A stretch of DNA of 39,697 nt from Candidatus Falkowbacteria bacterium (GTDB taxonomy: Bacteria; Patescibacteriota; Patescibacteriia; Patescibacteriales; XYC2-FULL-47-12), in contig JBDRNG010000039.1 in NCBI GenBank assembly GCA_043811275.1, positions 1-39,697 on the forward strand, read 5' to 3'. The translations under genes were made by a program, and so were the position numbers. Below, in pieces: positions 16,525 through 27,335 of this stretch. The notes under the pieces are model-generated. The model was not told where the DNA came from and did not search any database. It saw only the letters and a list, made by a program, of their open reading frames with translations. How positions within the stretch are numbered: position 1 is the stretch's first letter; each line of letters opens with the position of its first letter.

Positions 16525-16879
16525 TTATTTTATTAATGGTTTTATTAATTTTTTTAATTTTGGTAGATCATTTTGGCATGTTTTCCATACTATTTCAAAG
16601 TCAACTTCAATATATTGATGAATAATAAAATTACGCATTGCAATAATATCGCGAAATTCAATTTCAAAATTTTTACTTTTAAAACTTTCGCTTAAATTAT
16701 TAATGGCTTCTAATGGCTTCGCCGATTGTGATTAGTTCTCTTTCTACGGCATCTTTAACTAAATCATTTTTTTTAAATTTTTTATAATCAAAGCCATTTA
16801 AATATTTCTTTATTTTATTAATAGCACCCCATATATGATTTAAATATTCAGTGTCATTTTTTGGTTTATTTATTTTCAT
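16525..16879 (-). pseudogene. HEPN (DUF86/HepT-like) toxin frameshifted by a 10-bp tandem duplication
   Basis: Removing one TAATGGCTTC copy (16701-16720) restores a 114-aa ORF with DAVERELITIGEA and the RNFIIHQY motif. It overlaps the MNT stop. Confidence 0.85.
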
Positions 16880-17174
16880 ATATTTTTTGCGCTTTTTTAA
16901 TTACCGACGATCTAAAAAATCGACTGATTGCCCGAGGAGTCAATAAATCTACTGGTTTGTCTATACTTTTAGAAAAATTTCTTTGAATATGGGATAATTC
17001 GAAATAACCAATGGACGCATTTTTTTTAAACTCAATCAAAATATCCACATCGCTTTTTGGATGTGGTTTTCCATAGGCGTAAGAGCCAAAGATGGACACT
17101 CTTTTAATATCTTTTTTATGAGGACTTTTTTCTATAGCTTGTTTAATTTTTTTCTTAATTTCTGTTTTATTCAT
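16866..17174 (-). CDS. Minimal nucleotidyltransferase (MNT/MntA-like antitoxin)
   Basis: IFGSYAYG...SDVDILIEF and VDLLT motifs, upstream of the HEPN gene. Confidence 0.9.
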   Translation of the reverse strand: MNKTEIKKKIKQAIEKSPHKKDIKRVSIFGSYAYGKPHPKSDVDILIEFKKNASIGYFELSHIQRNFSKSIDKPVDLLTPRAISRFFRSSVIKKAQKIYENK

Positions 17175-17267: not shown

Positions 17268-17306
17268 AACAAAAAACAGCCTCAAATACTTGAAACTGTT
17301 TTTGTT
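17268..17306. terminator. Probable terminator hairpin
   Basis: AAAAACAG..TCAA/TTGA..CTGTTTTT inverted repeat downstream of 17346..19511. Confidence 0.55.
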
Positions 17307-17345
17307 AATTAATATTTTTTACTTCTTAATTCTTAATTCTAATTT

Positions 17346-19511
17346 CTACTCAAACTCCCCCACCTGAATCTTTCGCAAATCATCATTTTTAATACCTAAA
17401 CTTAAAAATCTCATTACATTGTAAGCGGTGTTACCATCGCCTAAATAATATCTTCGGCCATCGCTTGGGTTAATATACCAAGCTTCTCCGTGAGACTCCA
17501 CTTGCAAAGCGATTCTACCTTTCAATCTATTTATTAAACTTTGATTATAATTAAATTTTCCTTCTTTGTCCGGACGATAACCATTGAATATTTCTGATTT
17601 ATCATCAAAACCATCACCATCTGTGTCTGCTTTGTTCGGATCAGTGCCAATCGCTATTTCTAAATTATCTGGAATCTTATCTCCATCAGTGTCTTGCAAT
17701 GTATAAATTTTTTCTTGGATACCAATTGGGATAGTTTCTAAATCAGCGTTAGTTATTCCTAATCCCAGAGATCTCATGATGTCGTAAGAAGCCTGCCCGT
17801 CTTTCATATAGAACTTATTTTCTGATTCTGGATCTACATACCAGGCTTCGCCGTTGTTTTCTACCTGTAATAATATTCTACCTTTAATTCTATTAGTTAA
17901 TTCTTTATCTATTTTTTGCACTAATCTCTTTTCCATTTCCACTATTTTATTTTCTAATTGCGAGATGGTGCGTTCTAGCTTCAGGATGAGTAAGTCAGCC
18001 TTATCTTCAGAATAGCGGGCGTGGATTGAAGGTGCTTTTTTTATTGCACTGTTTGTTTGTGTTGCATTTTTAATTACATCATCTACTTGTCCATCACCTC
18101 CAACCGTAATTGTTTTAGTTGATGTATTATTAGCTTCATCGCTTTCAGTAATATCATTATCAGCATCAAGAGTAACCTTAACTGTGTATGTACCCGGAGT
18201 CATACCAAAAAATGTTGAGGTAATTTCACCTGAAGCTATTTTTTCACCTTCAGGTACTTCATTTCGCAACGTCGTTTGTCCATTAGTTAATACTATTGCA
18301 AAACCTCCATTAATTTCGCCAGGGCCAAGATTACTGTATTTTACTGTTATACCACCATCACCTTCTGTAATACCTTTAAAAAATAACTCCACTCCTACTT
18401 CAAGTTCTCTGGTTTCTAAATCTGTCTCGCCGTTTTCTTCGCCTTCATAAATAAACATCTGCGCATCACTACAGGCTCCGTGTCCAAAATCACCCGTTGA
18501 ATTACAAACTTTATATTCATAAGTACTCCCACTCATTAAGCTGTAATCTTCTCCAAAAATCCTCTCATGCTTAGTTGTTTGTGAATTATGAAAACCTCCA
18601 TTAATAATATTATTGTTCCATTTAGTGGTAAACCAATGGTCAGAATCAGCAAAACGCCATTTAACATTATAAAAATGACTCTTTAAATTTGTAGTCCATT
18701 CTGCTTTAGCTGTATTATTGGGTAAAATAGTCAGCGCTATATTATTAAAAACAGGAGGTTCACCCGAACCCACTGTTTTAAAAGTGATATAATCTTCGTC
18801 TTTGTTATTATTATTAACAATCCCATTATTTACCTCTGCGCTTGATATGTGGCATGTATATTCTGTATTTGGCTTTAGGTAATCAATGCCCATAGAATGA
18901 TAAATTCCGATTACATTTACATTAGTAGTTGGTTTTATTTCTTCATCAATACCAAACGCGCTACAAGAGGCTTCACCATTACTCAAAATATAAGGAGTTT
19001 TCCAATAAAGTTCAGCTCCAGTCCAACCTATGAACCTTGCTTGAGAATTTTTAATTTCAAGTTTTTTATTTCCTATAACATCATCAAAAGTAATAGATTT
19101 AACTAATGTATTATTACTTTCATCTGTTTCAACAAGTTTGTCTAAAGAATCAGGATAATTAACAATAAAAGTAATTAGATGTGTCTTGCCATCTGGTCTA
19201 ATGCCAAAATCGCTAAGTCCTATTTGAATATTTTTTGTTTCATTTTTATCATATACTCTGCCTGTGCCACTATATGATTTTTTTTCATCATACAAAGCTT
19301 TGACAAAATAATTTAATTGAGTGAGTGACTCTGTTTCATTAATATCTTTTATGGTCATACCAACACTAACTGTATCATCACCTATCACTGTTTGAAAGCT
19401 ATTTTCATCAAAAACAAAATCAGGAATTCCTTCTGCTTGCGCGCTATTTAAATTTAATATAATAAATGCCAGCGCGCAAACTAAAGTGAATAAAACTATT
19501 TTCCTAAACAT
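17346..19511 (-). CDS. Secreted surface protein with CARDB/Ig-like domains and CPR-type C-terminal repeats
   Basis: Signal peptide, two E.DE.NN CARDB ends, duplicated GRI.LQVE..GEAWY..P modules around DTDGD calcium-binding-like repeats. Confidence 0.75.
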   Translation of the reverse strand: MFRKIVLFTLVCALAFIILNLNSAQAEGIPDFVFDENSFQTVIGDDTVSVGMTIKDINETESLTQLNYFVKALYDEKKSYSGTGRVYDKNETKNIQIGLSDFGIRPDGKTHLITFIVNYPDSLDKLVETDESNNTLVKSITFDDVIGNKKLEIKNSQARFIGWTGAELYWKTPYILSNGEASCSAFGIDEEIKPTTNVNVIGIYHSMGIDYLKPNTEYTCHISSAEVNNGIVNNNNKDEDYITFKTVGSGEPPVFNNIALTILPNNTAKAEWTTNLKSHFYNVKWRFADSDHWFTTKWNNNIINGGFHNSQTTKHERIFGEDYSLMSGSTYEYKVCNSTGDFGHGACSDAQMFIYEGEENGETDLETRELEVGVELFFKGITEGDGGITVKYSNLGPGEINGGFAIVLTNGQTTLRNEVPEGEKIASGEITSTFFGMTPGTYTVKVTLDADNDITESDEANNTSTKTITVGGDGQVDDVIKNATQTNSAIKKAPSIHARYSEDKADLLILKLERTISQLENKIVEMEKRLVQKIDKELTNRIKGRILLQVENNGEAWYVDPESENKFYMKDGQASYDIMRSLGLGITNADLETIPIGIQEKIYTLQDTDGDKIPDNLEIAIGTDPNKADTDGDGFDDKSEIFNGYRPDKEGKFNYNQSLINRLKGRIALQVESHGEAWYINPSDGRRYYLGDGNTAYNVMRFLSLGIKNDDLRKIQVGEFE

Positions 19512-19620
19512 ATGTCTTTTTTAATTGTTAAATTGTTTTATTGTTAATAACAATGAAACAATTTTATTAATTAATAATTTTTTAACTTTAAGCTTTAGAC
19601 TTTGAACTTTAGACTTTAGA

Positions 19621-21546
19621 CTATTCCACCTTCCCATACCCCTTCCCTACTTCATCATCTTCCAGGTTGGTGGTTTTAGCTTTAGTGCTTAAGCTAATTA
19701 TACCTGCGCTGACAGTGTCTTCAGCGCTAACATTGGCTGGATTTAGCAATGACACTATTTTATTCTTATCAACGTCAGTCGGAGTAAAAATAATACTAAA
19801 TTCCGCTATGGCTGGTTCATCTATAACGTCCCATTCGTTAATAGCCCAAGATATTTCTCGACTATTAGAATCGTATAATATTTTTCCAGCGCTGTTACTA
19901 TAATTACTTTCCCAGTTGACATTGGCTGGCAATTTAACACTGGTGGTAATATTTTTTAAATCATGGCGAGAATTAGTTAAAGTCCAAAAAACTTTAAACT
20001 TGGTTTGTTCGCCGACTTTAGGTGGCAACGGCCCTTCACCGACAGCAATGTTATTGCGGTCAAAATAACGAACTTCATTTTTAAATGCTAAATCACTGTT
20101 AACTTTATTTACTACTCTGGTTACTGATTGGCCGTTGTCTTTAAGCTTGCTGTCAATGCTATAATCCAGCGAACTTATAATATTAAAATCTGCTGTCGCT
20201 ATTTTTTTTGCTTCTTCAGCTGTTTTTACTTTCAGAGAAAAGCTAAAACTACTTTCTTCATCAGGGCTGATATTGCTTAAAGAATTTACTTCTTCTTTGG
20301 TCCAAATAATGGAATTTCCCCGCCGTTCACCTTTATTATTATCAACTAAATCATCCCAATCAACCATAACCGAATCTACCGTGGCCATAATTGCCACATT
20401 TTTTAAACTAGCGTCGCTATTATTTTTATAATGCAGTACATAATTTAGGGCATCGCCTAAATCTACTGCTTTATTTCCCAATGAACCATTCACTGACAGG
20501 CTTAATTGCAACGCTCCTTCGGCCACGGCCGCGCTTAAATCATATTCAGCAAAGATATGTTCAGTGACAGACATTTTTCCGTCTAGCTCAATTTCTTGAG
20601 GAATAAAAAATACTAATCTTAAATTATCAGTTTGGGGCTTCTTTTTGTATTTTCCTTTAATTATTAATTCTTGTTTTTGTTCAGTTAAATCATTGATTTC
20701 CCACTCACCTGTTTGACTATTACTAATGACAAAATTATCATCATGCTCAAGACGAATTTTAAAGTAATCAAAAAAACTTTCTTTTTGTTTGGTATATTCA
20801 AGTTTAATTTCCGATTCTTCATTAACATGAAAAAATGACGGCGCTTCCACATTTAAATTAACTCCGGTTGAAGAAACTTTAGTAGTTATTTCTTTTTCTA
20901 CGTCAAAAGTTGAACTAAAATTTTCCGGCCGATAAGTAATAAAAGCTTTGATGGCCTGTTCGCTTTCTAACGGAGCAATAATTATCGCTTTAACAACTAT
21001 CCGACCACTTCGTTTAATATCAATTTGTTCAAGCTGCCAGGAAGCAAGCGCTGGATTATTATCCCCGCCAGCTGTTACCGGAGCCGCGTCTAATACAACA
21101 AAACCTTCCGGATACATTAAATTAATCTGCACATCGCGCAAATTAAATTTGCTTAAATTTTTATACTGCAGTTCATAAACAACTTCTTCTCCAGCTACTA
21201 CCTCTTCTGGTCCGATAATATTAAATTCTATATCTTCCGTGCGCATCCTTGCTCCAGAATTGAACAAAAAAAATAAAAACCAAGAAACAATAGTAATCAT
21301 TCCTAATAATACTAAAAACATCACTGTTATTTTTTTCCAAGGATCTGCCTGTTTTCGATGAAATACAGAAGATGGTTGTGTTGGTTCACCGGATACAGAG
21401 CTTTTATCGCTATTATTATCATCATTTCCATTCTGATAAATTTCTTTAATACTGGCGTCCAATTTGCTATCTTGTTCTTTTTCTTTTAACAGTTTGGCAA
21501 AATTTTCTTCTTTATTATGGTTATTATTGTTATCTTGTTTAGACAT
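19621..21546 (-). CDS. Membrane-anchored protein with Ig-like (DUF11-like) domains
   Basis: One N-terminal TM helix, beta-rich repeats (Y.L.YKN.S), GEGPLPPKVG motif. ATG at 21546 preferred. Confidence 0.7.
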   Translation of the reverse strand: MSKQDNNNNHNKEENFAKLLKEKEQDSKLDASIKEIYQNGNDDNNSDKSSVSGEPTQPSSVFHRKQADPWKKITVMFLVLLGMITIVSWFLFFLFNSGARMRTEDIEFNIIGPEEVVAGEEVVYELQYKNLSKFNLRDVQINLMYPEGFVVLDAAPVTAGGDNNPALASWQLEQIDIKRSGRIVVKAIIIAPLESEQAIKAFITYRPENFSSTFDVEKEITTKVSSTGVNLNVEAPSFFHVNEESEIKLEYTKQKESFFDYFKIRLEHDDNFVISNSQTGEWEINDLTEQKQELIIKGKYKKKPQTDNLRLVFFIPQEIELDGKMSVTEHIFAEYDLSAAVAEGALQLSLSVNGSLGNKAVDLGDALNYVLHYKNNSDASLKNVAIMATVDSVMVDWDDLVDNNKGERRGNSIIWTKEEVNSLSNISPDEESSFSFSLKVKTAEEAKKIATADFNIISSLDYSIDSKLKDNGQSVTRVVNKVNSDLAFKNEVRYFDRNNIAVGEGPLPPKVGEQTKFKVFWTLTNSRHDLKNITTSVKLPANVNWESNYSNSAGKILYDSNSREISWAINEWDVIDEPAIAEFSIIFTPTDVDKNKIVSLLNPANVSAEDTVSAGIISLSTKAKTTNLEDDEVGKGYGKVE

Positions 21547-21553
21547 AGTTACA

Positions 21554-22030
21554 CCCCACAAATCTACAAATCAGCTACAAATAATACAAATCTCTATTTT
21601 TGTAGATTATTAGGATTTAAAATTCTAATGGATTTAACACCACTAGGTGTGAAGTTAGCTAAAATAGCTAGTTTTAAACCTGTAATTTGGAGATACTGTT
21701 TAACTTGATCCATATTCTGTTTTGAAAAGTGATTTCCTTTTTTTATTTCTAAAACTATTTTTTCATCTACAATAAAATCTATATAATTCGTAGCTATAAT
21801 TTTATTATTAACTCTAATTTTATACGGAGCTTGTCTTGTGTATTTTATGTTTCTGCTAATAAAATATTGTTCAATTCCTTTTTCGTAATATTTTTCTTTA
21901 TATCCATAACCTAACTGATTATATGTTTCAAATAATATACCTACTATCTGATAGCTTAAATCTTTATGTAGCACTTTATTGTCGTTCATAGCATTTGTAT
22001 TATTTGTAGCTGATTTGTAGATTTGTGGGG
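21554..22030. mobile_element. Inverted-repeat-bounded GxxExxY cassette (putative mobile or intervening element)
   Basis: Perfect 38-bp inverted repeats at 21554-21591 and 21993-22030 enclose exactly one gene. Confidence 0.65.
21594..21989 (-). CDS. GxxExxY protein (PD-(D/E)xK nuclease-like)
   Basis: LGYGYKEKYY, IDFIVDEKIVLEIK, Q...YL and LANF motifs. Confidence 0.92.
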   Translation of the reverse strand: MNDNKVLHKDLSYQIVGILFETYNQLGYGYKEKYYEKGIEQYFISRNIKYTRQAPYKIRVNNKIIATNYIDFIVDEKIVLEIKKGNHFSKQNMDQVKQYLQITGLKLAILANFTPSGVKSIRILNPNNLQK

Positions 22031-22033
22031 GGG

Positions 22034-24016
22034 TTAACGTTCCTTTTCTACCTGATAATAGTTTAACACAAAATCAGCAATTTCCCTAAAAAGCGGAGCC
22101 GCCGAAGAAGCGGAAAAACGAACATCTTTAGGGTCTTGCAGGTAAGCTATCATTACAAACTGTGGGTCATCCACTGGAGCAAAGCCAACAAAAGAATGAT
22201 TAGTTCGGTTGGAATAACCGCGAACAATACTGGAAGCGATCTGGGCTGTGCCAGTCTTACCAGCGACATAATATCCTTCCACTTCTGCCAGTTTAGCATG
22301 GCCACCATCAACCACATTAACCAGCATGCCAGACACTAAAGCGGCGGCTCGTGGCGAAATAACTCGTTTTAATTCTTGTGGCTGTGTTTTGATTCGCTCG
22401 CCGTCCGGCTTAATAATTTCGTCAATAATATATGGCTTAACTAAAATTCCCTGATTAGCGATAGCGGCAAAAGCAGTTACCATTTGCAAAGGAGTGGTCG
22501 TAATGCCTTGTCCAAAAGAAGCAGTGGCCATGTTAAGATTTCCTCCTAAATTTTTATGATACAAAGAACTAATATTACCCTCGCTTTCTGTTTTTAATTT
22601 AATACCGGTTTTTTCTCCAAAGCCAAAATCTTCCATATATTTTATGAAATTATTAATGCCTACTTTTTGAGCAACATATACCGCGCCAGTATTAATTGAA
22701 TTTTCTAATATTTGATTTATAGTAACATCGCCATAAACAAGGTCGTCAGAGTTATGAATGGTTTCGGTTGCTAAAGTAACTGATCCAATATCATGAAAAA
22801 TGCTATCCGGCTCCACTAACCCTAAGTCAACCCCCATGGCCATGGTAATGGGCTTAAAGATTGAGCCTGGTTCATAGGCTTGAAAAATGCCAATATTATT
22901 AAAATATTTTAGATCTTTTGTCTTGCCATAATCATTAGGATCAAAATCAGGATAAACGCACATAGCGATAATAGCCCCCGTTTTTGGATTCATAATTATG
23001 ACAGCGCCTAAATCAGCTCCGTGTCGTAAGGTTGATTCATTAAGTTTACGGCAAGCTACATTTTGAATTGTTTTATCAATTGTTAAAATTATGTCATCGC
23101 CATTAATCGCTGGATTAAACTGGCGGTCAGCGGCAATGATTGTTTGTCCACTAGCATCACGTTCAGCGACTAACGATCCCATCACTCCTTTTAATTCATT
23201 ATTAAAATACCCTTCTACCCCGTAAGATCCTTGACTTAATTCATTATTACTATTGGCAATAACATAACCCAGTACATGCGAAGAAATATTTTTCTCTGGA
23301 TAATAGCGATAACTGCTCATAGAATAATCAATGCCTTTAATTTTCAAAGCTAAAATTTCCGCCAACTTTTCTTCATTAACTTTTTTTGCCAACGGCTCAT
23401 AAGGATCACCACGTTTGGAAAGTTTTTTAAATAATTCTTCCGAATATTCTTCTAACTTTTTTTCATGATCTTGTTCTATTTCTTCTTCAATAGCCAAACG
23501 TTCTTTCTCTAACGCCACCGCTAACTGCTCTTCATTAATAACTATCTCTTCTCCTGCCTTTAATTTACCAGACGCCTTAATTTCATTAGCCATTTCTTCA
23601 CGCAAACGTTGTTCAACTACTGCCACTAGATGCTCAACATCCGGTTCTTTATAAACTAAAGTAAATAAAACCGGCGCTAATTTCTTTACCGCATCTTCTG
23701 GATCAAGAACATCTTTTGGCACTGTATAAATTAAAGCAAAATCTTTATTAGCGGCTAAAGGATATAATTCGCTTTTATTATTATCACCTTCTTTGCTACG
23801 TACAAAAATACGCCCTCTCTCTGGCATAATTTCTTTATCCACGCCGTGCTGTCGCAATGCTTTAGCGGCGTATAAATCATAATTTAATAATTGCACATTA
23901 AATAAACGAATAATAATAGCTATGGCAAATAAAAAAATAATCGCTACAAGCAGTGTGATGCGATTATCTTTATCTAAACGACCGTTATTTTTTTTATGAT
24001 ATAAGCTCCAAATCAT
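22034..24016 (-). CDS. ftsI: Class B penicillin-binding protein (FtsI-like)
   Basis: ERGRI, RYYP, EPGSIFK (SxxK), SIN (SxN) and KTGTAQ motifs, in mraZ-rsmH-ftsL context. Confidence 0.9.
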   Translation of the reverse strand: MIWSLYHKKNNGRLDKDNRITLLVAIIFLFAIAIIIRLFNVQLLNYDLYAAKALRQHGVDKEIMPERGRIFVRSKEGDNNKSELYPLAANKDFALIYTVPKDVLDPEDAVKKLAPVLFTLVYKEPDVEHLVAVVEQRLREEMANEIKASGKLKAGEEIVINEEQLAVALEKERLAIEEEIEQDHEKKLEEYSEELFKKLSKRGDPYEPLAKKVNEEKLAEILALKIKGIDYSMSSYRYYPEKNISSHVLGYVIANSNNELSQGSYGVEGYFNNELKGVMGSLVAERDASGQTIIAADRQFNPAINGDDIILTIDKTIQNVACRKLNESTLRHGADLGAVIIMNPKTGAIIAMCVYPDFDPNDYGKTKDLKYFNNIGIFQAYEPGSIFKPITMAMGVDLGLVEPDSIFHDIGSVTLATETIHNSDDLVYGDVTINQILENSINTGAVYVAQKVGINNFIKYMEDFGFGEKTGIKLKTESEGNISSLYHKNLGGNLNMATASFGQGITTTPLQMVTAFAAIANQGILVKPYIIDEIIKPDGERIKTQPQELKRVISPRAAALVSGMLVNVVDGGHAKLAEVEGYYVAGKTGTAQIASSIVRGYSNRTNHSFVGFAPVDDPQFVMIAYLQDPKDVRFSASSAAPLFREIADFVLNYYQVEKER

Positions 24017-24119
24017 GCTTTAGTTGATTAGTTACATAGTTACACAGTTGACTAATTTTTAAAAACAACACCTAATTAACTAAACAACTATTTAACTATG
24101 TAACTGATTAACTGATTAA

Positions 24120-24503
24120 CTAATCCGCCATAGCAACATTTTCATTTTTAAATTCAATATAATCAATTTCATTAACACTAACCATTTCTAATTCTTGAAT
24201 GCGTTCTTGCAGTCCTTTATAAGATTCTAAATTCATGACAATTAATTCTAAGTCTCTATTATTCTTTTTTAAATCTTGAACGCTATTTTTTATTTCATTA
24301 ATAGCAAAACCCTGTGAAATAAGATGATTACTAGCCACAAAATAACTAATACTCACAATTAATATTAATGAAGCTAAAAAATAATTCAATGTTTTCATGT
24401 TCAACTGTAATGGCAAGCGCATTCTTCGCACCTGCGCGGCATAACCATACAAATTATTTCTGCCTTCGCATTCTTTAAATTTAGTTGTTGTTAATTCCTC
24501 CAT
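24120..24503 (-). CDS. ftsL: FtsL-like cell division protein
   Basis: Single TM helix followed by a coiled coil, between rsmH and ftsI. Start uncertain. Confidence 0.6.
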   Translation of the reverse strand: MEELTTTKFKECEGRNNLYGYAAQVRRMRLPLQLNMKTLNYFLASLILIVSISYFVASNHLISQGFAINEIKNSVQDLKKNNRDLELIVMNLESYKGLQERIQELEMVSVNEIDYIEFKNENVAMAD

Positions 24504-24667
24504 GTTAATCAACTTATAATAATAAATACTGTAATATTACATGTGATGCTAATTAACTGTCATTGCGCTACGTTTATGAGCGGATCGCAATGACAGTTAA
24601 GTCGTAAATCGTAAAATTAGCATCATATTCTTTCTGCTTCCCTCTTCCGCCAGCTGGCGGATTTGCG

Positions 24668-25696
24668 CTACATCTTTTCCGCTATCCGCATTTTCGCGCT
24701 GCGGGCGCGCGGATTTTGCTTAATTTCCTCTATTGATGGTATTACAACTTTTTTAGTTATAATTTTTAATTGCGCCTGATGCTGACATTGACAGATCGGC
24801 ATAGCCGGCGGACAAATGCAATCTTTAGACTCTTGTTTAAAAAATTGTTTAACTATTCTGTCTTCCAACGAATGGTAAGAAATAATTACTACACGACCGC
24901 CCTGATTTAAAGCTAGGACAGATTGTTCTAATAATGCTTTTAAATTTTCCAGTTCATTATTAGTCGCGATGCGGAGCGCCTGAAAAGTCCGCGTTGCTGG
25001 GTGTATTCGCACTTTTCTATAATTTTTAGGATTGCCTCTATAACTTTCAGGATTGCCTCGCCGTAGTCCCGAGTCACTCGGGACGAAGGCGGGTACTGCT
25101 TGAATGATAATGTCCGCCAATTGTTTAGCTGTTCGAATCACTGGAGCGCTCCTCCGCCCGGAATGCATGGTTTCTGGGCTCCTCCTTGTTTGGACAATCG
25201 CTCCGGCAATGCGATCAGCATACCTTTCTTCTCCAAAATTTTTAATAATTTCAACTAATTTTTCTTTACTATATTTATTTATAATTTCTAAAGTTTTTTC
25301 GCTTTCATCTTTATTATTAAAAGCCATATTTAACGGCGCATCCAATCCAAAAGAGAATCCGCGATTCCGGTCTTGGAGTTGAGCTGATGATAAACCAAGA
25401 TCAGCAACAAGGCCATCAACGGCTTCCAACTCATTTTCTTGAATAATATTTTGTAAGTGTTTAAAATTATCATGGACTAATGTTATATTTTTGTTTTTAA
25501 AAATTTTTTGAGCATTTTTGATGGCCAGCTCGTCTGCGTCAATTGCAATTACTTTTCCTTTGGCGCCAACTTTTTTAGCAATCTCTTTAGTGTATCCTCC
25601 GCCACCTAGGGTGCAATCAACTATTACTTGCCCTGCTTGCGGACGCAAATATTCTATTGCCTCCTTAAGCATGACTGGTGTATGTTGATAGGCCAT
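24668..25696 (-). CDS. rsmH: 16S rRNA m4C1402 methyltransferase with in-frame insertions
   Basis: HTPVML, DCTLGGGG, DLGLSS.Q, HPATRTFQALRI, SYHSLEDRIVK and NPRARSAK. Confidence 0.97.
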   Translation of the reverse strand: MAYQHTPVMLKEAIEYLRPQAGQVIVDCTLGGGGYTKEIAKKVGAKGKVIAIDADELAIKNAQKIFKNKNITLVHDNFKHLQNIIQENELEAVDGLVADLGLSSAQLQDRNRGFSFGLDAPLNMAFNNKDESEKTLEIINKYSKEKLVEIIKNFGEERYADRIAGAIVQTRRSPETMHSGRRSAPVIRTAKQLADIIIQAVPAFVPSDSGLRRGNPESYRGNPKNYRKVRIHPATRTFQALRIATNNELENLKALLEQSVLALNQGGRVVIISYHSLEDRIVKQFFKQESKDCICPPAMPICQCQHQAQLKIITKKVVIPSIEEIKQNPRARSAKMRIAEKM

Positions 25697-25697
25697 T

Positions 25698-25823
25698 TTA
25701 TCCTAAAATAAGTCTTAAAGTTTCAGCTTCCGCGCCGACTGAAGAAATTAACATAATGAAGACCGGCACAATAATAACAGCTAAAATAAAAATTAAATTT
25801 GGTATTATATTTATTTTTGTCAT
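25698..25823 (-). CDS. Unannotated 41-aa single-TM protein
   Basis: MTKINIIPNLIFILAVIIVPVFIMLISSVGAEAETLRLILG*. Stop is 1 nt before the rsmH ATG and GAGG lies upstream. Confidence 0.55.
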   Translation of the reverse strand: MTKINIIPNLIFILAVIIVPVFIMLISSVGAEAETLRLILG

Positions 25824-25964
25824 ATTCCTCTCATCCTAACCCTCTCCCCCAGGGAGAAAAAACTTAAATGAATTAAATTATTTTCGCCCCCCTCGCCCCG
25901 AAGTACTTCGAGAGGTGGGGGGTGCCTGCCCGCCCAGCTTACAAAGCTTGTGGAGGGAGGGAGT

Positions 25965-26393
25965 TTATGCTAATTCCCCTAATCCTTCAGCTATTTTACT
26001 GCTATTTTTTTCTGTTGTTTTACTATATTTTTTCCAAGCTGATTCATCCCAAATTTCAATTCTATTATATAGCCCCGCAATAATAGCCTTCTTTTTTAAA
26101 CTAGCATAGTCGCGTAAATATTCTGGCAATAAAATTCTACCCTGTTTATCAAATTCTGCTTCCATTGCTCCGGCTAACATGTAGCGGCCAAAAGCGCGGG
26201 TATTTGCTTTATTAATAGGAGCGCTGGCAATTTGTTCTGCCAACTTCTTCCATTCGTCTTGGGAGTAAAGAAAAAGACAGTTGTCAAGACCACGGGTAAC
26301 CACTGCCCCGCTTTTTAACTTAGAACGAAACTTTGCCGGCACGGCCACTCGCCCTTTATCGTCTATATTATGTGAGTACTCTCCAATAAACAC
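25965..26393 (-). CDS. mraZ: Transcriptional regulator MraZ
   Basis: FIGEY.H.IDDKGRV.VP, DKQGRILLP and IEIWD, GTG start. Confidence 0.97.
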   Translation of the reverse strand: MFIGEYSHNIDDKGRVAVPAKFRSKLKSGAVVTRGLDNCLFLYSQDEWKKLAEQIASAPINKANTRAFGRYMLAGAMEAEFDKQGRILLPEYLRDYASLKKKAIIAGLYNRIEIWDESAWKKYSKTTEKNSSKIAEGLGELA

Positions 26394-26430
26394 TAGGTTG
26401 AATTTAGAATTTATAATTAAAAATTTAGAA

Positions 26431-26787
26431 TTAATTTTTATTTGCGTTTTTAACGCTTTTAACTAAAATGCAAATAATTTCCTCACTTTCTTCTATTAAT
26501 AATTTCATTTTATCTTTCTGCATTAAACCAACTGCTATTATCATTTCTAACCAACGTTTAGTTTCTTTTGCTTCTTTTAATGATATCCTTAGATGATTTA
26601 TAAAATCTTTTCTAGAAACACCTCCTTTAGCTTGAACTATATTAGAATTTATTGAAGTAGAGGAATTTATTACTTGCCCGCCAATTTTCCAAGCAACAAC
26701 ATTATTTGGCAGGCACAAAACCATTTTTATTACTCTTACGGCAAATTGAAAAGTACGTTCATCAATATCCCAAATCTTTTCATTCAT
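26431..26787 (-). CDS. Four helix bundle protein (23S rRNA IVP-like family)
   Basis: ERTFQFAVRVI, QVINSSTSI.SNI, SRKDF...L.ISLKEAKET..WL. Confidence 0.9.
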   Translation of the reverse strand: MNEKIWDIDERTFQFAVRVIKMVLCLPNNVVAWKIGGQVINSSTSINSNIVQAKGGVSRKDFINHLRISLKEAKETKRWLEMIIAVGLMQKDKMKLLIEESEEIICILVKSVKNANKN

Positions 26788-26825
26788 ATACTATTTTTTA
26801 ATTCTAATTTCTTAATTCTTAATTG

Positions 26826-27003
26826 CCTGTAAGGTGCAAGAGAAGTATGGCTGAACTCAGACGGATCCAAATTCACCCAAACCCCTTCTATACCTTAGTG
26901 ACTTAATTACTAAGCTTAAGGCGCTTAGCAACCTTTGTCCCTCTAACAGGACTTTTTATTTTTGCAGGTTTGAGCGTTTATAGTCTAAGCTCAAACTATC
27001 TGC
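26826..27003 (-). ncRNA. Candidate structured leader RNA upstream of mraZ
   Basis: Several stems with G-U pairs favouring the minus strand, e.g. UGAAUUUGGA-UCCG-UCUGAGUUCA and GUUUGAGC/GCUCAAAC. Confidence 0.4.
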
Positions 27004-27004
27004 T

Positions 27005-27335
27005 GTTCAATAAATCATTTATGGATCTATTAAATATAATGAACCATTAATCCGAATAATATGTATTTATCTAAAATTTCATGCAACTATCCGAATGTTC
27101 CGAATTCTGTTTATTAAATTTAATTCGAATGAAATAATTTGTAGAATTTGCCTGCCCGCAATGTAAAGTATAGCTTTGGCAGGCGGGTAACAAACATTTG
27201 GGGCATTCGCCACGCCCGTCCCGCTGACGCAGTCGGTCGGGCGGGGATTTATTTGTGTCAGAGTAGATACGTACAGAGTATTTGGATTTCCGCCCGAGGC
27301 GGATCAGCCTTGGGCTGAAAACGATCACAGATGTT
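27005..27335 (-). repeat. Rod-like structured element, copy 3, interrupted by three palindromic insertions
   Basis: AACCATTAATCCGAATA and TGCAACTATCCGAAT blocks shared with copies 1 and 2. Confidence 0.7.

What the first reader, a model, noticed from the sequence alone, without database searches (positions are those of the whole stretch)
21554..22030. GxxExxY gene sealed inside a perfect 38-bp inverted repeat within the division operon
Seen: CCCCACAAATCTACAAATCAGCTACAAATAATACAAAT (21554-21591) and its exact reverse complement (21993-22030), each with four ACAAAT units. The arms lie 2-3 nt from the stop and start of the gene, 3 nt after the ftsI stop and 7 nt before the next ATG. In the mRNA they could form a 38-bp duplex that loops out the whole gene, hides its initiation region and brings the flanking genes together. 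Known: GxxExxY proteins are PD-(D/E)xK-like with no defined role. Inference: a minimal selfish cassette or mRNA intervening sequence, or an invertible segment. Identical arms imply recent formation or homogenisation.
Basis: partly seen in the sequence, partly recalled or inferred. Interest (0 to 1): 0.82.

Follow-up and report, generated by a model that had tools for sequence, protein, structure and literature searches.

The report
Nuclease gene inside a dispersed hairpin repeat
A small nuclease gene after the cell-division gene ftsI sits in the loop of a hairpin-forming repeat that is scattered, mostly without the gene, through this and related genomes, so it looks like a small selfish nuclease-plus-repeat module and not a part of the division operon.

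Summary
A perfect 38-nt inverted repeat (21554-21591 / 21993-22030, four ACAAAT units per arm) encloses an intact GxxExxY (PD-(D/E)xK) gene, 3 nt after ftsI and 7 nt before the next ATG.

New here: the arms are not private to this gene. They belong to a dispersed palindromic repeat family.
- The own 665-kb genome holds 12 arm pairs, 10 of them gene-less hairpins of 79-102 nt.
- A 17-nt arm word occurs in 71 of 151 genomes of the order.
- The same-genus relative lacks the cassette at this junction.
- The arms are 76/76 identical to a paralogous cassette whose ORF has diverged to dS 0.78.
- The ORF is under purifying selection (dN/dS 0.13-0.21).
- About four ACRAAT units per arm are kept in 21 of 27 cassettes of this protein clade. 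Only 2 of 23 more distant GxxExxY cassettes have them; those use other units.

Best reading: a repeat-nuclease-repeat module, a PD-(D/E)xK counterpart of NTS-ssnA-NTS and REP-RAYT. It is built like ORF-bearing 23S rRNA intervening sequences and is co-transcribed in sense. That the nuclease recognises the repeats, and that RNase III cuts the stem, are both inferred.

Inversion has no support. This scan has already reported such cassettes on other DNA (31 notes in at least 30 genomes). I found no published description.

The parts
21554..22030 (-). Whole cassette, 477 bp: arm, GxxExxY gene, arm. It is the unit of homology with copies elsewhere.
   Evidence: Homology with the paralogous cassettes (own C30:58512-58988; G001:C1; G145:C42) starts and stops at the outer ends of the arms. 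Metagenome contigs diverge from the window at 21554 and at 22029/22030 (table 7).
21993..22030 (-). 5' arm in transcript sense: CCCC followed by four ACAAAT units with spacings of 8, 11 and 9 nt.
   Evidence: The same 38-mer, with 0-9 mismatches, occurs 28 times in the own genome.
21594..21989 (-). GxxExxY protein gene, 131 aa, a single-domain PD-(D/E)xK nuclease. Motif G29-E32-Y35; catalytic D71, E81, K83.
   Evidence: PF13366 6.7e-25 and TIGR04256 1.8e-24. D71 and K83 are invariant, E32 and E81 nearly so, in 28 sequences. The AlphaFold model has pLDDT 91.8; the best folds are Cas4 SSO0001, lambda exonuclease and Hjc. dN/dS is 0.13-0.21.
21554..21591 (-). 3' arm in transcript sense, the exact reverse complement of the 5' arm. 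Its outer GGGG lies 7 nt before the ATG of the next gene.
21990..21992 (-). Three nucleotides between the 5' arm and the ATG. They sit where gene-less copies have their 3-nt loop.
   Evidence: In one search, 12 of 23 complete gene-less elements have 3-4 nt loops. One of these (L152, from G001) has the same three letters as the spacer of the G001 cassette.
22034..24016 (-). Upstream host gene ftsI (class B penicillin-binding protein). Its stop codon lies 3 nt from the cassette.
   Evidence: PF00905 4.2e-73 and PF03717. It is 95% identical to the same-genus orthologue.
19621..21546 (-). Downstream host gene, a DUF11-domain protein. Its ATG (21544-21546) lies 7 nt after the cassette.
   Evidence: PF01345 4.2e-08. 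The orthologue follows ftsI in G001 without the cassette.

Best explanation
The 477-bp unit is a gene-carrying member of a dispersed family of palindromic hairpin repeats whose arms are arrays of about four ACRAAT units. It is a repeat-nuclease-repeat module. It entered, or replaced what lay in, the short spacer after ftsI as one discrete piece, and it is not part of the division machinery. I take the ACRAAT units to be iterated recognition sites for the cassette's own GxxExxY nuclease. On this reading the nuclease binds, and cuts at or near, the hairpin or cruciform that its repeat forms in DNA. This would keep the arms uniform and would spread or maintain both the gene-bearing and the gene-less copies, as Ssn nucleases do with NTS repeats and RAYT transposases with REP/REPIN. 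The gene has no visible promoter of its own and lies in sense with its neighbours, so it is probably transcribed with ftsI. In that RNA the 38-bp stem would hide its start codon and the GGGG before the next gene, and would be a substrate for the RNase III that the genome encodes, as in ORF-bearing 23S rRNA intervening sequences. Shown: the anatomy, the dispersal, the sharp ends, the presence/absence between relatives, the arm conservation, purifying selection on an intact nuclease, the sense orientation, and units that track the protein clade. Inferred: that this protein reads these units, what it cuts, how copies move, and any RNA processing.
For: The arm is a repeat family. There are 28 arm matches and 12 arm pairs in the own genome, 10 of them gene-less hairpins of 79-102 nt. 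A 17-nt arm word with up to 2 mismatches occurs in 71 of 151 genomes of the order, up to 43 times per genome, while the word read backwards gives 0-4 hits. In two groundwater metagenomes (X2, X3) the arms have roughly 10 times the depth of the flanks. Contigs in all four runs laid join the two arms over short loops in foreign flanks. The unit is discrete and not fixed. The same-genus G001 (ftsI 95% identical) has ftsI followed by the DUF11 gene with a 274-nt spacer of other hairpins. None of the 29 relatives' ftsI loci has a GxxExxY hit beside ftsI, and 6 of 13 relatives have only 4-15 nt there. The arms are constrained. Against the G001 cassette the arms are 76/76 identical while the interior is 329/401 identical with dS 0.78. 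In the orthologous pair C30a/G001 the arms differ at 4/76 positions against 14 of 74 synonymous sites. The protein is functional: dN/dS is 0.13-0.21, the catalytic residues are conserved, and the nuclease fold is confident. The units track the protein. At least 2 ACRAAT units occur in both arms in 21 of 27 cassettes with 49% or more protein identity (3.1 units per 60-nt arm), against 2 of 23 more distant ones, which use other units. Spacers between units diverge freely. The sister pair L174/L176 shares a variant unit. On the tree the label needs 9 changes against 15.2 in shuffles, and 1 of 500 shuffles is as low. At genome level, 23 of 26 genomes with 6 or more arm hits carry a GxxExxY gene against 40 of 124 others. 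A homologue at 50% identity or more is found in 13 of 26 against 10 of 124 (tallied). The design is general: 18 of 30 GxxExxY loci of the order exceed the 5th percentile of mismatched-flank controls. Orientation: both neighbours are on the same strand in 24 of 32 loci and on the opposite strand in 0 of 32. rnc is present. Published precedent: NTS-ssnA-NTS, a single-domain nuclease gene flanked by the dispersed hairpin repeat that it cuts next to (PMC11893778, sections 7 and 12 read).
Against: G103 and G149, the two genomes with the most arm hits (42 and 43; 93% and 97% complete), have no PF13366 gene at all, and 13 of 26 hairpin-rich genomes lack a close homologue. The hairpins therefore persist without this nuclease. 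Four-helix-bundle genes, which are not nucleases, are packaged the same way in this genome. Units that track the protein clade could partly reflect common descent of whole cassettes, and related genomes are not independent. I saw no target-site duplication, no conserved target and no clean empty site in the sister species, so nothing about the mechanism of movement is shown. On the RNA side, there is no G.U over A.C excess in stems on the sense strand (28 against 45 in 61 hairpins, p = 0.06). No biochemical data exist for any GxxExxY protein in the papers I could search.
Confidence: 0.55

Rival explanations
1. An RNA device first: an intervening sequence of an mRNA. The arms exist to form a long stem in the ftsI transcript. 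RNase III cuts the stem, releases the GxxExxY message and separates the flanking messages, exactly as for ORF-bearing 23S rRNA IVS. Dispersal of the hairpins would be secondary.
For: The anatomy equals that of the Coxiella IVS: 428 nt, a 28-bp terminal stem, the ORF in the loop, tandem heptamers before the ORF, and RNase III excision shown experimentally (PMC4990558, passages read). The stem is predicted with z = -9. Start and stop codons hug the stem. The orientation is always sense and rnc is present. No promoter or terminator signal exceeds chance.
Against: There is no G.U over A.C excess on the sense strand. Hairpins of this genome also lie between convergent (13) and divergent (7) gene pairs. 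The primary sequence of the arms and their units is conserved far beyond what pairing needs. No RNA data are available.
Confidence: 0.22
2. A passenger gene in an independent hairpin element. The hairpin repeat spreads or is kept by a host factor or an unknown one. The GxxExxY gene, like four-helix-bundle genes, is a separate selfish gene that lodges at the apex of such hairpins, as homing endonuclease genes lodge in loops of group I introns. It need not recognise the arms.
For: The ORF sits exactly after the 3-nt position that is the loop of gene-less copies. Gene-less copies far outnumber gene-bearing ones (10 to 2 in the own genome; no gene-sized arm pair in G103, G029 or G046). G103 and G149 have hairpins but no GxxExxY gene. 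Non-nuclease four-helix-bundle genes use the same housing. Hairpins can enclose other inserts.
Against: The unit motif co-varies with the nuclease clade, and different GxxExxY clades within one genome use different units. That is hard to explain with one host factor. Eight of 23 gene-less loops keep the first ~8 and last ~4 interior nucleotides of the cassette, so they are deletion derivatives of gene-bearing copies.
Confidence: 0.18
3. An invertible segment: recombination between the identical arms flips the gene as a switch.
For: A perfect 38-bp inverted repeat could in principle support inversion. One 'opposite strands' joint was listed in run X2.
Against: That joint has the same depth (6.78) as a gene-less hairpin contig of the same run and only 41 nt on one side, so it is most likely the same foreign hairpin laid twice. 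Zero of 32 loci lie antisense to both neighbours. The cassette has room for only the one 131-aa ORF. I did not search its neighbourhood for a recombinase gene.
Confidence: 0.02

Closest known systems
ORF-bearing intervening sequences of 23S rRNA (Coxiella burnetii helix 45, Leptospira; S23p / four-helix-bundle ORF), PMC4990558
   Same: The size is similar (428 against 477 nt). Both have a long terminal inverted repeat forming a stem, one small ORF filling the loop, and short tandem units next to the ORF. Both are regarded as selfish. The four-helix-bundle family of those IVS is packaged identically in this genome.
   Different: This one lies between protein genes, not in rRNA. Its ORF is a PD-(D/E)xK nuclease, not S23p. 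RNase III excision is shown for the IVS and untested here. The arms here belong to a dispersed gene-less repeat family. In the passages of PMC4990558 that I read, nothing of that kind is reported for the Coxiella IVS.
Ssn (GIY-YIG) site-specific ssDNA nucleases with NTS/SRM repeats, PMC11893778
   Same: A single-domain nuclease gene of about 100-130 aa is flanked on both sides by a 20-50 nt hairpin-forming repeat that is dispersed through the genome. Many nuclease-repeat pairs exist, each with its own sequence. Nuclease and repeats co-occur at genome level (81% of repeat-rich genomes in the paper; 23 of 26 here).
   Different: The fold is different (PD-(D/E)xK, not GIY-YIG). Here the arms are arrays of about four short units and form one long stem around the gene. 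Cleavage specificity is proven for SsnA and unknown here. A GIY-YIG gene flanked by another repeat family also exists in this genome (C21:24832-25134).
REPIN-RAYT systems (abstracts of PMC3116915 and PMC3337134 seen in the listing)
   Same: A gene is flanked by inverted copies of a palindromic repeat, which also exists as many gene-less hairpin doublets taken to be non-autonomous derivatives.
   Different: RAYT is an IS200/IS605-type tyrosine transposase, and the abstracts seen describe it as single-copy and mostly vertically inherited. Here the gene is a small nuclease with two copies carrying these arms in the own genome. The distribution is patchy, and the arms are near-identical across families of the order.
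Correia repeat enclosed elements and other bacterial MITEs (abstracts of PMC2649163 and PMC10969869 seen in the listing)
   Same: Short elements with terminal inverted repeats lie between genes and are co-transcribed. According to the abstract of PMC2649163, the Correia element binds RNase III and is either cleaved or protected by it.
   Different: From recall, those elements have target-site duplications and no gene-bearing form with a nuclease in the loop. No duplication was seen here.
Homing endonuclease genes in loops of group I introns (recalled, no call)
   Same: A selfish nuclease gene is housed in the loop of an RNA-structured element. Gene-less forms are in the majority, and there are remnants of lost ORFs.
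   Different: There is no ribozyme and no splicing here, and homing has not been shown.

Membership tests
GxxExxY protein family (TIGR04256 / Pfam PF13366 PDDEXK_3) | Score above the curated cut-offs of both models | tested here: met
   PF13366 scores 88.2 bits (cut-off 22) and TIGR04256 scores 86.4 bits (cut-off 35).
GxxExxY protein family (TIGR04256 / Pfam PF13366 PDDEXK_3) | GxxExxY motif and PD-(D/E)xK catalytic residues on a restriction-endonuclease-like fold | tested here: met
   G29, E32 and Y35 are read from the sequence. D71 and K83 are invariant, E32 and E81 at least 90% conserved, in 28 sequences. The model has pLDDT 91.8. Foldseek matches Cas4 SSO0001 at E 3.5e-05, then lambda exonuclease and Hjc. 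Nuclease activity itself was not tested.
ORF-bearing 23S rRNA intervening sequence | Inserted in a helix of the 23S rRNA gene | tested here: not met
   It lies between ftsI and a DUF11 protein gene, and there is no Rfam match anywhere in the window.
ORF-bearing 23S rRNA intervening sequence | Terminal inverted repeats form a long stem with a single ORF in the loop and tandem short units beside it | tested here: met
   Compare PMC4990558.
ORF-bearing 23S rRNA intervening sequence | Excised from the transcript by RNase III | not testable with these tools
   An rnc gene is present at C5:26438-26836. No RNA run holds the sequence.
Repeat-associated nuclease module (Ssn/NTS-like, RAYT/REP-like) | The gene is flanked on both sides by a repeat that is also dispersed without the gene | tested here: met
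   There are 10 gene-less and 2 gene-bearing arm pairs in the own genome, and the arm word occurs in 71 of 151 genomes of the order.
Repeat-associated nuclease module (Ssn/NTS-like, RAYT/REP-like) | Nuclease and repeat co-occur across genomes, and the repeat type tracks the nuclease type | tested here: inconclusive
   In favour: 23 of 26 against 40 of 124 genomes, and 21 of 27 against 2 of 23 cassettes. Against: G103 and G149 have 42-43 arm hits and no such gene, and related genomes are not independent.
Repeat-associated nuclease module (Ssn/NTS-like, RAYT/REP-like) | The protein binds or cuts its own repeat | not testable with these tools
   This needs biochemistry.
MITE (miniature inverted-repeat transposable element) | Target-site duplication and a cognate transposase | tested here: not met
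   The flanks of the 12 arm pairs show no duplication and no shared target. The only ORF is a PD-(D/E)xK nuclease.
Invertible DNA switch | Both orientations occur, with a recombinase nearby | tested here: not met
   Zero of 32 loci lie antisense to both neighbours. No contig among the four runs laid shows an inverted form. I did not search the neighbourhood for a recombinase gene.

The most novel reading that the evidence does not exclude
GxxExxY proteins are a large, unrecognised family of single-domain PD-(D/E)xK nucleases. Each would be paired with its own iterated short DNA word, read as an array of about four units on each arm of a hairpin. They would create, homogenise and spread palindromic repeat families across bacteria. 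On this reading the ORF-bearing intervening sequences of 23S rRNA are merely the copies of such modules that landed in rRNA, and gene-less IVS and many intergenic hairpins are their decayed offspring.
Probability: 0.3. Interest if true: 0.85.

Novelty: new variant of a known kind. Interest (0 to 1): 0.66.

Why it matters
GxxExxY and four-helix-bundle proteins are among the commonest small 'hypothetical' proteins of bacteria, and no function is known for them (PMC3424549 lists PF13366 as 'Unknown'). The origin of rRNA intervening sequences has been open since 1990 (PMC4990558, discussion).

This locus ties together three things: an intact, selected nuclease; a specific short DNA word repeated on both arms; and a dispersed population of gene-less hairpins with the same arms.

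That yields a directly testable hypothesis, unit-specific binding and cleavage. It also yields a way to predict the recognition word of each family member from its own flanks, as was done for Ssn nucleases. If the hypothesis holds, it would add a second fold to the class of repeat-associated site-specific nucleases and explain much of the hairpin litter in the small genomes of this order.

For the division operon the result is negative. The cassette is an insertion, not a division gene.

Tried and rejected
- RNA evidence: no RNA holder is listed for the 1.2-kb stretch, so expression and processing could not be examined.
- Rfam: 0 matches in the window.
- PDB by sequence: 0 matches at E up to 1.
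- Promoter and terminator scan of 19400-27200: 34 promoter-like sites against 30.5 expected and 10 terminator-like sites against 5.8. None bears on the cassette.
- G.U against A.C mismatches in 61 hairpins between co-directional genes: 28 against 45, with 60 other mismatches. There is no wobble signature for selection on the sense RNA.
- Target-site duplications and a shared target were looked for in the flanks of the 12 arm pairs. None was seen.
- A clean empty site in the sister species G001 was not found. At the ftsI junction and at 3 of 5 orthologous sites of own arm copies (4 gene-less hairpins and 1 solo arm), G001 carries other repeat families instead. One site keeps the hairpin (C22:36764) and one (C29:2249) I did not resolve.
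- The inversion joint 21547/21989 in X2 was rejected as evidence. It has the same depth as a gene-less hairpin contig and only 41 nt on one side.
- Loops of about 180 nt between ACAAAT arms in G103 were tested for decayed GxxExxY sequence. No homology was found; they hold nested hairpins.
- GxxExxY as an obligatory partner of the hairpins was rejected by G103 and G149.
- Rows dropped: of 37 loci, 5 were skipped (contig end, or fused ORF over 200 aa) and 2 (L101, L109) fell out for lack of a start codon in range, leaving 30 scored. L089 was scored with a start codon that lies too far upstream and so counts as a miss.
- Rows dropped: 50 distinct loci were scored from 64 locus records. The rest were duplicates of the same place, hits under 90 aa, or had under 60 nt of flank.
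- Rows dropped: 45 proteins were used. Five more were dropped for internal stops or length.
- Literature searches: 'GxxExxY' (3 papers); five names of the two protein families (28 papers, listing only); CPR with palindromic, repeat, intergenic and hairpin (3 papers). None describes such cassettes. Supplementary tables of the Ssn paper, which list its repeat-gene associations, could not be seen and might include PD-(D/E)xK neighbours.

Full report
**The observation**

The window carries, on its minus strand, a four-helix-bundle gene, mraZ, rsmH, an ftsL-like ORF, ftsI (a class B PBP), a 131-aa ORF and a DUF11-domain protein gene. The 131-aa ORF (21594-21989) is a GxxExxY / PF13366 protein.

It is bracketed by a perfect 38-nt inverted repeat, 21554-21591 and 21993-22030, with four ACAAAT units in each arm. 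The distances are 2 and 3 nt to the ORF, 3 nt to the ftsI stop and 7 nt to the next ATG.

This is far beyond chance:
- It is the only perfect pair among the 20 inverted repeats of the window.
- Its flank-to-flank duplex is the strongest among 163 small ORFs of the genome (-66.2 against a median of -14.8 kcal/mol).
- The RNA fold has z = -9.0.

**The genome, and other genes with the same design**

The assembly is 665 kb in 52 contigs, 34% G+C and 59% complete. It holds 4 GxxExxY genes and 6 PF05635 four-helix-bundle genes, one of the latter below the cut-off.

Most of these genes are bracketed by a long stem of their own, each with a different arm sequence made of short tandem units. With 70-nt flanks they rank 1, 2, 5, 8, 11, 12 and 27 of 163. 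The fourth GxxExxY gene (C30:31551) and the sub-threshold four-helix-bundle gene have weak stems.

In a sample of the order, 18 of 30 GxxExxY loci exceed the 5th percentile of a control that pairs each upstream flank with another locus's downstream flank. The medians are -38.3 against -18.8 kcal/mol.

**The arms are copies of a dispersed repeat**

The 38-mer occurs 28 times in the own genome with up to 9 mismatches. It forms 12 arm pairs. Two enclose a GxxExxY gene (this one and C30:58512-58988). Ten are gene-less hairpins of 79-102 nt with loops of 3-26 nt. Four arms are solo.

A 17-nt word of the arm, with up to 2 mismatches, is found in 71 of 151 genomes of the order, patchily and up to 43 times per genome. 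The same word read backwards gives 0-4 hits.

I laid contigs of four metagenomes on the window:
- In X2 and X3, the arm bins have about ten times the depth of the flanks.
- In X2-X5, contigs join the two arms over loops of 9-31 nt within foreign flanks.
- Loose ends pile up at 21554 and at 22029/22030.
- One X2 contig carries a whole cassette, 85% identical, in other flanks.

The unit of homology is therefore exactly arm-gene-arm.

Arms of three four-helix-bundle cassettes of this genome also have gene-less relatives. Those of the GxxExxY gene on C13 do not.

**Presence and absence between relatives**

The same-genus genome G001 (ftsI 95% identical) has ftsI followed by the DUF11 gene. Between them is a 274-nt spacer that holds two gene-less hairpins of another unit type and no GxxExxY gene. 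None of the 29 relatives' ftsI loci has a GxxExxY hit next to ftsI. In 6 of 13 relatives examined the spacer after ftsI is only 4-15 nt.

The second own cassette (C30) is syntenic with the single ACAAAT-armed cassette of G001. The interior is 375/401 identical and the flanks 89-91%. So that copy is inherited, while the window's copy is a paralogue (interior 82-83% identical) that the sister species lacks at this site.

Orthologous sites of five own arm copies (four gene-less hairpins and one solo arm) were compared in G001. One keeps the hairpin, three carry other repeat families, and one was not resolved. Spacers in these genomes turn over by replacement, and I found no clean empty site in the sister species.

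**Constraint on the arms and on the gene**

Against the G001 cassette, the window's arms are 38/38 and 38/38 identical, while the interior is 329/401 identical with dS 0.78. In the orthologous pair C30/G001 the arms differ at 4 of 76 positions, against 14 of 74 synonymous sites.

The arms are thus held far more tightly than silent sites, either by selection on their sequence or by continual homogenisation. 'Recent formation' does not explain their identity.

The ORF is under purifying selection (dN/dS 0.13-0.21). It keeps D71 and K83 invariant, and E32 and E81 nearly so, in 28 sequences. It models confidently (pLDDT 91.8) as a minimal PD-(D/E)xK nuclease. The nearest solved folds are Cas4 SSO0001, lambda exonuclease and archaeal Hjc resolvases. 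No solved relative is found by sequence.

**The repeated unit tracks the nuclease clade**

I examined 27 distinct cassettes whose protein is 49% or more identical to the window's. They include the window's own and come from many genera. Both arms hold at least two ACRAAT units in 21 of them. The mean is 3.1 units per 60-nt arm, where chance gives about 0.05 by my estimate from base composition. Meanwhile the spacers between units and the outer ends diverge freely.

Among 23 more distant GxxExxY cassettes only 2 have these units. The others use other words, one of which resembles the heptamer of the Coxiella IVS.

The exceptions inside the clade mostly carry one-letter variants of the unit, and the sister pair L174/L176 shares such a variant. 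On a protein tree the label needs 9 changes against 15.2 in shuffles, and 1 of 500 shuffles is as low.

Different GxxExxY clades within the own genome use different units. That argues against a single host factor and for recognition by the cassette's own protein. Shared descent of whole cassettes contributes to this signal, and related genomes are not independent.

**Link between nuclease and hairpins at genome level**

Of 26 genomes with six or more arm-word hits, 23 carry a GxxExxY gene, against 40 of 124 others. A homologue at 50% identity or more is present in 13 of 26 against 10 of 124 (tallied).

The link is not obligatory. G103 and G149 have the most hits (42 and 43) and are 93% and 97% complete, yet have no PF13366 gene. 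No gene-sized arm pair is seen in G103, G029 or G046.

**Relation between gene-less and gene-bearing copies**

I classified 23 complete gene-less elements, 10 own and 13 from G001:
- 12 have a 3-4 nt loop.
- 8 have a loop of about 21 nt that begins with the first ~8 interior nucleotides of the cassette (including its start codon or a decayed form of it) and ends with the last ~4.
- 3 have other loops.

The 3 nt between the 5' arm and the ATG of the cassettes sit where the short copies have their triloop. In one short copy from G001 these three letters are the same as in the G001 cassette.

So the ORF sits at the apex of the hairpin, and the 21-nt-loop copies are best read as internal deletions of gene-bearing copies. 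Whether the triloop form is the ancestor or the end product cannot be told.

**The RNA side**

In 24 of 32 loci with two neighbours, both neighbours lie on the gene's strand. In none are both opposite. No promoter or terminator signal stands out. The cassette is therefore probably read through from ftsI.

In that RNA the stem would cover the start region of the nuclease gene and the GGGG before the next gene. The genome encodes RNase III. This is the logic shown experimentally for the Coxiella IVS (PMC4990558).

Against a primary RNA role, stems of 61 hairpins between co-directional genes show 28 G.U against 45 A.C mismatches on the sense strand. Hairpins also lie between convergent and divergent genes. 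No RNA run holds the sequence.

**What is known**

'GxxExxY' occurs in 3 papers of the library, none of them about its context. PF13366 is listed as 'Unknown' with multiple transfers (PMC3424549). Searches for the family names and for CPR hairpin repeats gave nothing on such cassettes.

The closest characterised system is the Ssn family: a single-domain GIY-YIG nuclease gene flanked by its dispersed hairpin repeat, with site-specific ssDNA cleavage shown (PMC11893778, sections 7 and 12). REPIN-RAYT and Correia elements are further parallels (abstracts only).

The scan has already reported hairpin-bounded GxxExxY cassettes (31 notes in at least 30 genomes), some of them with ACAAAT or TACAAAT arms and gene-less copies.

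- the quantitative contrast between arm and ORF conservation;
- the test of unit against protein clade;
- the genome-level association together with its exceptions;
- the negative wobble test;
- the apex position of the ORF.

**Verdict**

The feature is real and is not a division gene. It is a gene-bearing member of a dispersed hairpin-repeat family and most likely a nuclease paired with its own iterated recognition word. It is built like an rRNA intervening sequence and housed in an operon spacer. The DNA-level module is well supported. The enzyme's target, the way copies move and the RNA processing are inferred.

Noticed in passing
window 26408-26824 (-): A four-helix-bundle gene (PF05635, 118 aa, 26431-26787) is bracketed by 27-nt arms with 4 mismatches, made of AATTAAG-like units. 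The cassette ends 6 nt before the GTG of mraZ. The mraZ-ftsI block is therefore capped by a cassette at each end.
   Followed up: partly
window 24022-24113, 24553-24600, 25887-25922: Every spacer of the mraZ-rsmH-ftsL-ftsI block holds a gene-less hairpin. Between ftsL and ftsI lies a 36-nt-arm hairpin made of AGTTA-type units. The other two belong to other repeat families, one of them a repeat seen all over this genome.
   Followed up: partly
window 19512-19620 and 17300-17345: Tandem arrays of short units stand alone without a complementary arm (five TCTAAAG-like units; AATTAAG-like units resembling the arm of the four-helix-bundle cassette). Next to them is a small hairpin of AACAAT units that matches the arms of the four-helix-bundle cassette on C45.
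   Followed up: partly
own genome C21:24832-25134 (L-less; genome.fa): A 100-aa GIY-YIG protein gene is flanked by inverted copies of another abundant repeat of this genome. It looks like an Ssn-type nuclease with its own repeat, which makes it a second nuclease-repeat pair in the same genome.
   Followed up: no
own genome C29:2662-3027: A 121-aa ORF is flanked by G+C-rich hairpins. From its sequence alone it looks to me like a DUF559 / Vsr-like endonuclease, but no family search was run. It may be another small nuclease with the same kind of housing.
   Followed up: no
L074-L079 (G103), L084 (G001:C9): ACAAAT-armed hairpins enclose about 180 nt of nested structured inserts without an ORF, or have a second hairpin inserted into one arm. 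Elements appear to insert into one another.
   Followed up: partly
L109 (G142:C5), L144-type rows: Several GxxExxY hits in the order carry in-frame stops (for example 1 TAG in G142:C5, and TGA plus TAA in G003:C37), so they are decaying copies. The G142 cassette uses ACAGAT units, close to the heptamer of the Coxiella IVS.
   Followed up: no
window 16866-17174 (-): A 102-aa nucleotidyltransferase (PF18765 / PF01909) of the kind found in NTase-HEPN pairs. I did not look for a partner.
   Followed up: no
rows G106:C68, G047:C4, G067:C30, G055:C7: PF13366 matches lie inside open frames of 750-860 aa, so fused forms of the GxxExxY domain exist in this order.
   Followed up: no
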